Below, piece after piece: positions 42,381 to 45,854 of a DNA stretch of 64,000 bases; position 1 is the stretch's first letter; every line of letters starts with the position of its first letter. The position numbers and the translations under genes are program-made. The notes below the pieces were generated by a model, which saw only the letters and a program-made list of their open reading frames with translations, had not been told where the DNA came from and did no database searches. Source of the stretch: the human T2T-CHM13v2.0 reference genome, Homo sapiens; the NCBI RefSeq assembly GCF_009914755.1, contig NC_060939.1; one strand, 5' to 3'.

Positions 42381-44539
42381 ATGGGTATTTATAGATATTT
42401 ATAGAACAATGCGAGGGCATACCACAGAGGGGGGCACAAGTTTCACAACAGTCACACCTGGATGTGTCAGCTCACCACTACAACAGACTAAGTCACAGAT
42501 GAAGGGGGCTGGCTTTGGGGCTGGGGGAGCCACTGCCAAGTCACAGAACAGCCGCCCAGGCAGGCTTGGAAAGGGAGGCCTCCGAGAAGAGAAGGGATCT
42601 GTTTAGAGGTCGAAGGGGGGCGTGGGGCTCTCAGGATGGGATGGACTTGCGTGACCTGATCGGCTGGCAGTTGGAGAGAAAGCAGAGAGAAAAGAGGAGA
42701 GAGAAAAGGGAGCAGAGAGCTGGTGAGGCCAGTGCAGAGCACAGGTGTGCCACAGCAGCTGTGGGAGGGCCAGGGAGGGGAGGGCGCAGGTGCGGGTGTG
42801 GCAAGGTTCCTGGAAAAGAGGGGCTGGAAGGGAAAGGGGAGGAAGATGGAGGGAGGAGCCGGAGCTTCACAGGTAGTGCCTGGGGACTGTGGCGGCCCTC
42901 CCCACCCCACACATGCTGGCCTCTTCCATTGCACCCAGGCAGTGTACCCACAGGTCAGACCAACGCTCGGCCCCTTTGGGCTTCCCTCTTCTCTGGTCAC
43001 CAACCAACTTGTCTTCCAAGTCGTCTTCCAACCTGTCTTCCAACCAACTGGTCTAGGGCCACCTCTCACCTTGGGAAGCCCAACATAACAGCCACCAGGC
43101 CTGACAGAAGGAAAATTGCTCGAACAAGGATGATGAAGCTAAATGGGATGGATGGTTGGAGTGATCGCCGGAGCCCCCTCTGGGTGGTCAGGAAGCTCAG
43201 GACCCTCTGAAGGGACCCTGGGGGAGGCAGGGTGGGCAGGCAGCCGGATGCCACTGGCTATAAACTTATAAGTCTAAGAGGGGAGCCTCAGCTTGTTGGA
43301 GATTGCAGGTCCCATAGGTGAGGCTGGGTCCTTCCTCCCAGGGAAAGGAGACGGAGACCATGGCAAGGGAGGTGGGTGGGCTTGCTGGGCAGAGCTCAGC
43401 TGGGCCAGCAGGCACTGGGCTCCCCTCGGCTGAATAGGAGGGCCAATCTCTAGGAGCAACAAGCCAAGGTGCGTGAGCCCGCTGGCTGGTGGTAGTGCTT
43501 CAGCGGGGCCCAGGGACCCTGCCTTCAGTCACATGCTAGCAGCTGTGATGGTACCTGGGAGGGAGGGAAGGGGGCTGTGTGCCCCTACCTGACCTGTGAG
43601 GTGTGTTTTGGGTTGACCATGTGTATGGGACTCTCGAGGTTTTATCCTAGATCACCACTGTTTTGCCAACAGATAGAGGAGGTGGGACCCTATCACCCCT
43701 GCTCTGCAGTGGATTTGGCCCTCAGCACTCCAAGGCATCCAGGCTGGGAGCTGGATGCCCCACCCTGGCAGCATGGCTCAGACAGCACAAAAGGCATGGC
43801 GTGCCCAGGATGACATTCCTGGGCCTCTGGCCACCTCAGAGTACAGCCCCACACACAACCCCCTCCAAGCTCTCAGCCCTTACACCACGAGCTCCCTGAT
43901 GGCTCCAGAGACCACCCACATCTGCCAGCTTGGGCACGGAGCCTGTTCCAAGAGCCCCCAGGCTCAGCCATGGGGGCTGGGGAGACTTGGGGCCATAGGG
44001 GCCAGCCCTGGTACCTGCGTCTGGCAAGGACGCTCTGCACCTGCAGCCAGGAGTTGTCCACGGGCCCCCATGTGCGTGCTGATGGTGGTTGTGTTGATGT
44101 CACCGATGATGCTGAGCACCTCCTTCAGCACGTGGTACATGCGCAGCATCTCATCTCGCCACTGTGCCTGCTCTGCCAACTCCTCCATCAGCGTGTTCTG
44201 GTTCCCATGCAAGTACAGGTTGGACAGCAACTCTGATAATATGAGCTCCTTGGTCTGAGAGGGGGCAAAGAGGGAAGGAGGTTGGGACCTGATGCATGTG
44301 CTGGCCTGATGCCTGTGCTGGGACAGTGTGCTGGACTTGGAGCCCTGAGTATGGCTTTGCACACGCGGCTTCTACACCGCTTAGACTCAAAGATCTGCCA
44401 CCCCACCGCCCTTTTCTCACTCAGATAGGGACGCTGAGGTCCAGAGGAAAAGTCACCTGTCCAAGGTCACACATCTGGGAGGGGACCCAGGACCTATCAT
44501 GCCACCAGGACACCTGTCTACTCAGTTTCTTAAAAATGT

Positions 44540-44828
44540 TTTTTGGAGATAGGATCTCGCTCTGTTGCTGGGCTGGAGTACAGTGAGCAAGATCACCACT
44601 CACTGTAGCCTGAACCTCTTGGGCTCAAAGTGATCCTCCAATGTCAGCCTGTCGAATAGCTAAGACTATAGGCATGTGCCATCACTAAGCCTAGCTATTT
44701 TTAAAATTTTTGTGTAGAGACCAGGTCTCACTATGTTGCCCAAGCTGGTCTCGAACTCCTGGGCTCAAGCTATCCTCCTACCTTGGCCTCCCAAAGTGCT
44801 GGGATTACAGGCATGGACCACTGTCCCT
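44540..44828 (-). mobile_element. Alu (AluJ-like)
   Basis: Antisense Alu consensus. Confidence 0.88.
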
Positions 44829-45659
44829 AGTCCCACATTATAGTTCTATGAGACAGCTCTGGTCTGGACTGTGCCTCCCTCCCTGAACCTGGTCCCATAG
44901 GGCTGGTCGGCATCTCCCCCAGGCCAACATGGCCACCTGCATCCCCAGTGCCACAGGAGCCCCCTGCCCCTATGAGGTGGTGCATGCACGTTGTTGATCA
45001 TGACGTGCATGACGGTCTTGGGCATGAAACCAACTATGAGGTCCCACACAGTCTTGTTGACAATGGCCTTGTAGGAGTCCACAAGGTTCTGGGTGGTTTC
45101 CATTTGCCGCTTCAGCTGTGGGTCCATGGAGTGGACTTAAGATTGAGTCTAGACCTAGACTGCTGCCGGGCTTTGCAAAACCCAACTGGAGTTGGGTCCT
45201 GGGCTGCTCTCTGTGGTTCTGAAGCACCATCTCCCACCAGTGTGGCTGGTTCCCCTTAATCTGCATCTCTGGTGTCTCCTATACAGCCTCTGCCAGAAAT
45301 TCAAAAGCAGAGAGGGCTTTTATTTTCTATCTTCCAAAATAAATTTCAAAGTATTATTGGCAAACTTGAATAGTGACTTCTGTTTCATAATTTTTCATCG
45401 CCTTTTGGTTTCATCTTTAGAAAGTTTTTTAAGTTATGAGAATTTTTCTTTCCCTTAGAAGTTGATGCACATAAATCCCCTTGTTTGCCACATTAATGGC
45501 AGACCTTACTTTCCCCTCCCCGATTCCTGCAGGGGATCTCCAAAAATCTAAGCGTTAGGAAAGAGCCCAGCCAATCGCATCCCAGTGGTATCCCCACCCT
45601 TCTTCACCTCTCCCAGACTGTAGCCTTGCCCCACCCTCTCAGCCACCAGGGACACTCAC

Positions 45660-45854
45660 AGGGAATCTTGTTAATCTCATTGAAGAACTTCTCCTTCAGT
45701 TTGGCAAACATGTCCTCCTGGCTCTCCCCAGCACTCCCACTCTCGGTGGAGTTGTCCACGGGTCCAATGGGCATCGTGACGGTGGTGGTGGCAGGAGCCA
45801 CAATAGGCTCTTGGTTCCTCTTGAAAATGTTCCTCATGGTGGCAGAGGGGACAG
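45660..45854 (-). pseudogene. Duplicated synaptotagmin-2 (SYT2) first coding exon
   Basis: GCCACC-ATG at 45837 gives [59 protein letters not shown], nearly identical to the SYT2 luminal N-terminus as recalled. Donor T|gtgagt at 45659 is intact. The polypyrimidine tract ends in cat rather than cag. Confidence 0.9.

What the first reader, a model, noticed from the sequence alone, without database searches (positions are those of the whole stretch)
42631..45837. Possible in-frame SYT2 N-terminus->dynamin-1 GED chimera at a duplicon junction
Seen on -: the SYT2 exon has a perfect Kozak ATG, 178 coding nt and an intact donor in phase 1. The DNM1 block starts 525 bp downstream, with an AG at the junction (CTTAAG|TC CAC TCC ATG GAC, exon start 45135). 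T+TC gives Phe in frame with DNM1. Continuing 45135-44990, 44254-44015 and 42663-42631 there is no premature stop: 198 aa ending PIRSRKSIPS*. Established: both parents act in the synaptic-vesicle cycle, and the GED mediates dynamin assembly. Inference: a soluble GED-bearing protein with no transmembrane segment, antisense-convergent to GOLGA8, might interfere with dynamin. Caveats: the AAG acceptor is weak with competing upstream AGs, and no promoter is identified.
Basis: partly seen in the sequence, partly recalled or inferred. Interest (0 to 1): 0.75.

Follow-up and report, generated by a model that had tools for sequence, protein, structure and literature searches.

The report
SYT2–DNM1 pseudogene junction, paper ORF only
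A copied piece of the synaptotagmin-2 gene lies next to a broken copy of the dynamin-1 gene's tail on chromosome 15, and although the two can be joined on paper into a 198-residue reading frame, the splice signals needed are missing or very weak, so this is most likely an ordinary dead junction between duplicated DNA segments.

Summary
The observation reproduces exactly.

The ORF sits on a breakpoint between two segmental duplications:
- A copy of at least 29 kb of the SYT2 5' region from chr1, about 95% identical, ends at 45143.
- 9 nt of filler follow, matching neither parent.
- A truncated DNM1 pseudogene (DNM1P30) starts at 45133.

Sequence evidence against a real chimeric gene:
- The proposed acceptor AG lies in the filler. 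The true DNM1 acceptor, 39 nt upstream in the parent, was lost.
- By a rough matrix, that acceptor and the exon's mutated donor score below all 18 GOLGA8T acceptors and all 18 donors in the window.
- The SYT2 exon's own acceptor AG has become AT.
- There is no CpG island or annotated start site nearby.
- The only other copy, at chr15 30.18 Mb, has a 1-nt deletion that stops the ORF after 46 aa.
- The GED carries a 4-aa insertion and a 2-nt deletion, and the PRD exon is absent.

Splicing to the strong natural acceptor at 44254 shifts the frame.

Verdict: a pseudogene junction of low interest. No RNA data could be consulted.

The parts
45143..64000 (-). Segmental copy of the 5' part of SYT2 (chr1). 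It is collinear with the parent and about 95% identical, and it continues past the window end to at least window position 74000.
   Evidence: chr1 201866876-201885710 aligns at 95% across 45143-64000; 94.5% over 1570 nt, ending at 45143; homology continues over 65359-74000, at 90% including indels.
45660..45837 (-). Copy of the SYT2 first coding exon: ATG, 178 nt, phase-1 GTGAGT donor. It encodes 59 aa with 3 differences from the chr1 parent.
45855..45856 (-). The site of the parental exon's acceptor AG now reads AT in both chr15 copies. No AG remains between 45902 and 45835.
   Evidence: The parent site scores 9.5 bits in the rough matrix. The window has no AG there.
45134..45142 (-). 9-nt breakpoint filler (TCTTAAGTC) that matches neither chr1 nor chr9/DNM1P. 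It contains the proposed acceptor AG (45137-45136).
   Evidence: four-way comparison; chr1 covers the query only to 45143, and DNM1P copies only from 45133.
44990..45133 (-). Truncated DNM1 exon (N-terminal half of the GED). It lacks the natural acceptor and the first 39 nt of the exon. It carries a 12-nt (4-aa) insertion, and its donor is weakened from GTGCGT to GTGCAT.
44015..44254 (-). DNM1 exon (C-terminal half of the GED) with its strong natural acceptor. A 2-nt deletion shifts the frame for its last 18 codons.
42604..42663 (-). Copy of the DNM1 last coding exon. The paper ORF reads it out of the dynamin frame and stops at 42631. The parental-frame stop is at 42604-42606.
42431..45135 (-). 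The annotated pseudogene DNM1P30. It is about 79-83% identical to chr9 DNM1 and 96.3% to its closest paralogue at chr15 32.33 Mb. The 2.95-kb parental segment holding the PRD exon is absent.
   Evidence: Hub annotation.

Best explanation
This is the breakpoint between two segmental duplications in the 15q13.3 repeat blocks, not a gene.

How it arose:
- An old copy of the tail-to-tail GOLGA2/DNM1 neighbourhood of chr9 supplied GOLGA8T and DNM1P30.
- Later a large piece of the SYT2 5' region from chr1 (at least 29 kb, including the first coding exon) was joined to it by a non-homologous join with 9 nt of filler.
- That join cut DNM1P30 inside an exon.
- The joined block was then duplicated once more within 15q13.3, giving the copy at 30.18 Mb.

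Why the ORF means little: the 198-aa SYT2-GED frame is a by-product. It follows two parental frames that happen to match in phase across an AG in the filler.

What any transcript would probably do:
- The signals needed to produce the ORF are absent or decayed.
- An RNA that used the intact SYT2 donor would most likely join the strong natural acceptor at 44254.
- That join shifts the frame and ends after 93 aa. The stop lies 136 nt before the next junction, so the RNA would be a likely target of nonsense-mediated decay. The decay step is an inference.

Shown here: the architecture, the lesions and the signal strengths. Inferred: the order of events, the joining mechanism and the absence of a product.
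For: Architecture
- SYT2 homology runs from 45143 to at least 74000 at about 95%.
- DNM1 homology starts at 45133.
- The 9-nt filler matches neither parent.
- Only 2 of 11 scored genomic matches span the junction, the window and chr15 30.18 Mb. chr1 stops at 45143, and the 8 DNM1P copies matched start at 45133.
- 11 of 13 DNM1P loci compared keep parental DNM1 sequence upstream of the break. The exceptions are the twin and L023.
- The parental exon starts 39 nt upstream, at a CAG acceptor.

Signals
- The proposed acceptor scores -1.3 bits. It ranks 106 of 255 AGs in 45640-42600 and 19 of 55 AGs before 44990, and an AG lies 13 nt upstream.
- The donor at 44990 scores 0.8 bits.
- All 18 GOLGA8T acceptors (3.6-13.4) and all 18 donors (3.3-12.3) score higher. 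The natural acceptor at 44254 scores 10.9.
- The SYT2 exon's parental acceptor (9.5 bits) is AG to AT in both chr15 copies.
- Upstream ATGs lie at 45889, 45920 and 45968. The one at 45889 opens an overlapping out-of-frame ORF.
- CpG observed/expected is 0-0.22 over 45400-47649.
- No transcript is annotated over 45660-45837 (hub table).

No conservation of the ORF
- The twin copy has a 1-nt deletion and stops after 46 aa.
- Window against its closest DNM1P paralogue: 9 nonsynonymous and 3 synonymous changes, dN/dS 0.8.
- The 12-nt insertion is shared with both paralogues compared and the 2-nt deletion with all three. One paralogue type has an in-frame TAG.
- The PRD-exon segment is absent.

Alternative joins all end early or out of frame.
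Against: - The window copy keeps an intact ATG, an open 59-codon SYT2 exon and an unchanged strong GTGAGT donor.
- The full GED is still recognisable: 86 of 110 aligned residues are identical to the parent, and both halves score above the Pfam cut-off.
- Pairwise dN/dS against the parents is below 1: 0.18 for the SYT2 exon (3 nonsynonymous, 4 synonymous) and 0.29 for the GED part. Constraint on the parental lineages alone can produce such values.
- A predicted lncRNA (LOC105370746) shows that the minus strand is transcribed 16 kb upstream, inside the same SYT2-derived block.
- AAG acceptors and weak donors are sometimes used.
- No RNA-seq, Iso-Seq, CAGE or proteomic data could be consulted.
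Confidence: 0.87

Rival explanations
1. A spliced but non-coding (or decay-prone) chimeric RNA exists. Transcription entering from upstream, or starting near the exon, uses the intact SYT2 donor at 45660 and joins the natural DNM1P acceptor at 44254 or another intronic AG. The result is a pseudogene or lncRNA transcript with no meaningful protein.
For: - The donor at 45660 is unchanged from the parent and scores 6.8 bits. The acceptor at 44254 scores 10.9 bits, the best natural site downstream.
- A minus-strand lncRNA model lies upstream in the same block (hub table).
- Other DNM1P copies are reported as expressed lncRNAs, for example DNM1P35 and DNM1P47. I saw only the search listing and abstracts.
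Against: - The exon's ancestral acceptor is lost, so upstream transcripts cannot enter it in the parental way.
- There is no CpG island or annotated start (hub table).
- No transcript is annotated across 45136-45837.
- No paper in the library holds both DNM1P* and SYT2.
Confidence: 0.12
2. One reading: a 198-aa soluble SYT2-N-terminus/GED protein is made from the window copy and interferes with dynamin assembly.
For: - The ORF is open in the window copy.
- Pfam GED coverage is 2-91 of 92.
[quoted passage not shown] I saw it only as rows in the tables of PMC7226042 and PMC4607824.
Against: - Everything listed under the best explanation applies here too.
- The GED has a 4-aa insertion between dynamin-1 residues 680 and 681. 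Its last 28 residues are out of the dynamin frame.
- In solved dynamin structures these helices are part of the stalk and bundle-signalling element, packed against the middle and GTPase domains. This is established knowledge that I recall. The GTPase-GED fusion chains appear among the hits. A lone fragment would lack those partners.
Confidence: 0.02

Closest known systems
DNM1P30, and the DNM1P pseudogene family of chromosome 15 beside GOLGA8/GOLGA6 copies
   Same: The 42431-45135 block is the annotated DNM1P30. It shares the family's 12-nt insertion, 2-nt deletion and missing PRD-exon segment. It also shares the tail-to-tail position next to a GOLGA8 gene, and that collinearity with chr9 extends past the DNM1 3' end.
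   Different: This copy and its twin at 30.18 Mb are cut inside an exon and joined to SYT2-derived DNA. 11 of 13 other copies compared retain DNM1 sequence upstream of that point.
[quoted passage not shown]
   Same: It is a GED-only ORF read from a DNM1 pseudogene transcript, so the idea of a free GED protein from this family is already catalogued (table rows seen).
   Different: It comes from a different locus. I know of no SYT2 part in that entry (recalled, not checked). Its existence as a protein is itself rated uncertain.
CHRFAM7A, the FAM7A/ULK4-CHRNA7 fusion gene of the same 15q13.3 duplication blocks
   Same: It is a chimeric gene created by the juxtaposition of partial gene copies in the same repeat architecture. 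The fusion is named in the introduction of bioRxiv 10.64898/2026.03.03.709017 and in the abstract of PMC8998457.
   Different: CHRFAM7A has an established transcript and product (abstract of PMC8998457). Here the splice signals are missing or decayed, no start site is known, and the sister copy is frameshifted.
SYT2 (chr1), the parental gene
   Same: The first coding exon, its Kozak context and its donor are copied. 56 of 59 residues are identical, and 171 of 178 exon bases.
   Different: Only the 5' region and the first coding exon were copied. The transmembrane and C2-domain exons lie beyond the breakpoint and are absent, and the exon's acceptor is lost.

Membership tests
Duplicated (unprocessed) pseudogene fragment | Homology to the parent extends through introns and flanks, not only exons | tested here: met
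   The SYT2 part is collinear with chr1 over at least 29 kb at about 95%. The DNM1 part aligns to chr9 through introns at 79-83%.
Duplicated (unprocessed) pseudogene fragment | Truncated relative to the parent gene | tested here: met
   The SYT2 copy ends 517 nt into the intron after the first coding exon, at 45143. The DNM1 copy starts 39 nt inside an exon.
Duplicated (unprocessed) pseudogene fragment | Disabling lesions | tested here: met
   - Acceptor AG to AT.
- Donor GTGCGT to GTGCAT.
- 2-nt deletion and 12-nt insertion.
- PRD-exon segment absent.
- The twin has a 1-nt deletion.
Duplicated (unprocessed) pseudogene fragment | Neutral pattern of substitution since duplication | tested here: inconclusive
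   Against the closest paralogue: 9 nonsynonymous and 3 synonymous changes, dN/dS 0.8. Against the parents: 0.18 and 0.29, but those values include the constrained parental lineages. Counts are small and there is no outgroup.
Expressed chimeric gene born at a duplication junction (CHRFAM7A-like) | Exons of two parents on one strand, with compatible phase | tested here: met
Expressed chimeric gene born at a duplication junction (CHRFAM7A-like) | Usable splice sites joining the two parts in frame | tested here: not met
   The acceptor at 45135 (-1.3 bits) and the donor at 44990 (0.8 bits) score below 18 of 18 annotated sites of each kind in the window. The strong acceptor at 44254 gives a frameshift.
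Expressed chimeric gene born at a duplication junction (CHRFAM7A-like) | Promoter or transcript evidence | not testable with these tools
   No expression data are on hand. Indirect evidence: no CpG island, no annotated transcript (hub table), and no paper found.
Expressed chimeric gene born at a duplication junction (CHRFAM7A-like) | ORF kept open in sister copies | tested here: not met
   1 of the 2 copies in this genome is frameshifted, with a stop after 46 aa.
Dynamin GED (Pfam PF02212) | Profile match above the curated cut-off | tested here: met
   26.9 and 27.4 bits against 21.4, covering profile positions 2-39 and 41-91 of 92. The two exons were scanned separately.
Dynamin GED (Pfam PF02212) | Uninterrupted helices, together with the middle and GTPase domains they pack against | tested here: not met
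   There is a 4-aa insertion between dynamin-1 residues 680 and 681. No middle-domain or GTPase exons lie in the copy, since DNM1 homology starts at 45133. The packing role itself is recalled from published structures.

The most novel reading that the evidence does not exclude
The window (BP4-side) copy starts transcription in the roughly 50 nt just upstream of the retained SYT2 ATG. It uses the filler AG at 45136 and yields a hominid-specific 198-aa cytosolic protein: the SYT2 luminal peptide fused to a mutated GED. That protein modulates dynamin assembly in some tissue, and the twin copy has already lost it.
Probability: 0.02. Interest if true: 0.55.

Novelty: new member of a known kind. Interest (0 to 1): 0.1.

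Why it matters
As a gene candidate it matters little, because the evidence points to a dead junction.

Three modest points have some value:
- The gene table supplied for this window lists no SYT2-derived fragment, yet at least 29 kb of SYT2 5' sequence lies here and again at 30.18 Mb. Short reads from the SYT2 first coding exon and upstream region could be mis-mapped between chr1 and chr15.
- The breakpoint, with its 9-nt filler and an exon cut mid-way, records how the 15q13.3 repeat blocks were assembled. These blocks matter clinically.
- Two predicted lncRNAs (LOC105370746 and LOC105370747) lie inside the SYT2-derived block.

If the chimeric protein were real, it would be a second fusion product of this region beside CHRFAM7A.

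Tried and rejected
I fetched two smaller stretches instead. As a result, the far end of the SYT2-derived block and the position of the SYT2 promoter and 5'UTR exons relative to it were not determined.
- No annotation of chr1 was available. That CCCCAG|CTG is the parental exon's acceptor is therefore inferred: it is the first AG after a long AG-free pyrimidine run, and it scores 9.5 bits.
- Literature searches gave nothing on this junction:
  - DNM1P* with SYT2: 0 papers.
  - SYT2 with GOLGA8: 4 unrelated papers, listing only.
  - DNM1P30 or DNM1P50: only gene-list mentions.
  - LOC105370746, LOC105370747 or LINC02249: 18 papers, of which the 10 listed are unrelated.
  - The 2026 preprint on 15q13.3 has 0 occurrences of SYT2 or DNM1 in its main text. 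Its supplements are closed and might show the block.
  - Antonacci et al. 2014 (PMC4244265) is not held.
- I considered folding the chimera or testing a complex with dynamin, and did neither. A spliced product is not a letter-for-letter window sequence, and the question turns on expression rather than fold.
- The prokaryote-oriented protein and promoter tools were not used, as they do not apply to this sequence.
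Full report
**1. The observation**

- The ATG is at 45837, in a GCCACC-ATG-A context.
- The exon runs to 45660 (178 nt, phase 1) and is followed by GTGAGT.
- An AG at 45137-45136 precedes T45135.
- Joining 45837-45660, 45135-44990, 44254-44015 and 42663-42631 gives 597 nt, or 198 codons plus a stop.
- The first exon is SYT2. Its translation matches PDB synaptotagmin-2 chain 4kbb_C at E = 4e-22. 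Its DNA matches chr1 at 95%.
- The next two exons are the dynamin GED. Pfam PF02212 gives 26.9 and 27.4 bits against a cut-off of 21.4, at profile positions 2-39 and 41-91 of 92. They align to dynamin-1 residues 649-692 and 693-754 of PDB chains.

**2. What the locus is**

The window's genome could be searched.
- The SYT2 exon has 3 matches among 3 scored candidates: the window, a twin at chr15 30.18 Mb on the opposite strand, and chr1.
- Homology to chr1 is not limited to the exon. It is collinear at about 95% from 45143 to the window end (94.5% over 1570 nt). It continues to at least window position 74000.
- The SYT2-derived block is therefore at least 29 kb.
- Homology to DNM1 (chr9) and to the many DNM1P copies starts at 45133.
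- A four-way comparison shows 9 nt (45142-45134, TCTTAAGTC) that match neither parent.
- A 91-nt probe across the break found 11 candidates, all scored. Only 2 span it, the window and the twin. chr1 covers it up to 45143, and 8 DNM1P copies cover it from 45133.
- In 11 of 13 DNM1P loci compared, parental DNM1 sequence continues upstream of this point. The exceptions are the twin and L023.
- In chr9 and in the closest paralogue the exon begins 39 nt upstream of the break, behind a CAG acceptor.

So the SYT2 block was joined to an existing DNM1 pseudogene inside an exon, with filler. I read this as the mark of a non-homologous join (inference).

Identities suggest the order of events (inference):

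| Comparison | Identity |
|---|---|
| DNM1P30 against chr9 | 79-83% |
| DNM1P30 against its closest paralogue (chr15 32.33 Mb) | 96.3% |
| SYT2 block against chr1 | about 95% |
| Window against twin | 99.4% over 4408 nt |

Homology to chr9 continues past the DNM1 3' end towards GOLGA8T: 42342-40848 at 87%. The convergent GOLGA8/DNM1P layout is therefore inherited. GOLGA8's closest relative is GOLGA2 on chr9 (passage of PMC6920530). That GOLGA2 and DNM1 are neighbours on chr9 is my recollection.

The region chr15:27.5-30.8 Mb of T2T-CHM13 is the 15q13.3 duplication architecture (section 5 of bioRxiv 10.64898/2026.03.03.709017).

**3. Can the paper ORF be produced?**

Five lines of sequence evidence say probably not.

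(a) The acceptor.
- The AG lies in the filler.
- It is an AAG with a poor pyrimidine tract, and another AG lies 13 nt upstream.

| Site | Score (bits) |
|---|---|
| Proposed acceptor at 45135 | -1.3 |
| 18 annotated GOLGA8T acceptors in this window | 3.6 to 13.4 |
| Natural DNM1 acceptor at 44254 | 10.9 |
| Donor of the same exon at 44990 | 0.8 |
| 18 annotated GOLGA8T donors | 3.3 to 12.3 |

- The proposed acceptor ranks 19 of 55 AGs before 44990 and 106 of 255 AGs in 45640-42600.

(b) The donor of the same exon has decayed from the parental GTGCGT to GTGCAT.

(c) Entry into the SYT2 exon.
- The chr1 parent has CCCCAG|CTG 17 nt before the ATG, behind a long AG-free pyrimidine run (9.5 bits).
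- Both chr15 copies read CCCCAT, and no AG remains between 45902 and 45835.
- Transcripts from upstream, such as the predicted minus-strand lncRNA LOC105370746, cannot enter the exon in the parental way.
- As a first exon it would need a start site within about 50 nt. ATGs at 45889, 45920 and 45968 lie upstream, and the one at 45889 opens an out-of-frame ORF that overlaps the SYT2 ATG.
- CpG observed/expected is 0-0.22 and G+C is 0.37-0.51 over 45400-47649.

(d) The alternatives.

| Route after 45660 | Outcome |
|---|---|
| Splice to 44254 | Frameshift, stop after 93 aa |
| Splice to 45148 | Out of frame, stop after 146 aa |
| Splice to 45526 | Immediate stop |
| No splicing | Stop after 77 aa |

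(e) No conservation.
- The twin copy has a 1-nt deletion in the SYT2 exon and stops after 46 aa.
- The DNM1P exons carry a 12-nt insertion (four residues between dynamin-1 residues 680 and 681) and a 2-nt deletion. The insertion is shared with both paralogues compared and the deletion with all three loci compared.
- The copy at chr15 28.19 Mb (L019) has an in-frame TAG.
- The 2.95-kb parental segment holding the PRD exon is absent from the window and from 9 of the 11 other DNM1P loci searched (L017-L019, L023-L027, L029). Two further loci, L030 and L031, retain the distal part of that segment but not the PRD exon itself.
- After the 2-nt deletion, the last 28 residues of the ORF are not dynamin.
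- Against the closest paralogue the GED exons differ by 9 nonsynonymous and 3 synonymous changes, dN/dS 0.8.

**4. Evidence on the other side**

- The window copy keeps the ATG, an open exon and an unchanged donor.
- 86 of 110 aligned GED residues match the parent.
- Pairwise dN/dS against the parents is 0.18 (SYT2 exon: 3 nonsynonymous, 4 synonymous) and 0.29 (GED). Constraint on the parental lineages can explain these values, and the counts are small.
- The minus strand is transcribed 16 kb upstream, according to a predicted model.
- No expression or proteomic data could be consulted.

**5. Comparison with what is known**

- DNM1P30 is annotated. The SYT2-derived block is not in the table supplied.
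- None of my searches found the junction in print.
[quoted passage not shown] I saw it only as rows in two proteomics tables.
- The functional analogue would be CHRFAM7A, a fusion gene of the same repeat blocks. The present junction fails the tests for usable splice sites and for an ORF kept in sister copies.

**6. Verdict**

This is a relic junction of two duplicated gene fragments, with confidence about 0.87.
- A spliced non-coding chimeric RNA is possible (about 0.12).
- The 198-aa protein is unlikely (about 0.02).
- Interest is low.

Noticed in passing
window 45685-45687 (codon 51 of the SYT2 exon copy): The chr15 copy encodes Phe at residue 51, where the chr1 parent encodes Leu. The synaptotagmin-2 chain 4kbb_C also has Phe-Phe there. 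A review passage states that a single-site SYT2 mutation arose in humans and chimpanzees and lowers binding of one botulinum neurotoxin serotype (PMC8402508). That this is the same residue is my recollection. If so, the copy keeps the ancestral state and predates that substitution, which fits its 5% divergence.
   Followed up: partly
window 61714-64000 and beyond (to about 74265): The predicted lncRNAs LOC105370746 (minus strand) and LOC105370747 lie inside the SYT2-derived block. The annotated 3' end of LOC105370746 at 61714 abuts the start of an Alu-like repeat, and no AATAAA appears in its last 47 nt. The model may therefore be cut short at the repeat.
   Followed up: partly
window 64216-66633 (locus L056): About 1.4 kb here corresponds to only about 230 bp of chr1, so it is extra sequence. 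It overlaps a stretch (64216-66633) that matches dozens of places genome-wide at about 75%, which suggests a repeat inserted or expanded in the chr15 copy.
   Followed up: no
L019-L022 (chr15 28.19, 27.89, 28.36, 30.23 Mb; includes DNM1P28 just left of the window): These DNM1P copies are 88% identical to DNM1P30. An in-frame TAG in the first GED exon was seen in L019. They keep DNM1 sequence upstream of the window's breakpoint.
   Followed up: partly
window 43974-43977: A parental chr9 segment of 2.95 kb that contains the proline-rich-domain exon of DNM1 is missing here. It is also missing from the other chr15/chr10 DNM1P loci compared, apart from partial remnants in two.
   Followed up: yes
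window 42345-42392: A (CA)n microsatellite lies just beyond the annotated low-coordinate end of DNM1P30 (42431), next to the DNM1 3'UTR-derived sequence.
   Followed up: no
window 44539-44830: An Alu-like repeat lies in the intron between the two GED exons. It matches many loci at 70-75%.
   Followed up: no
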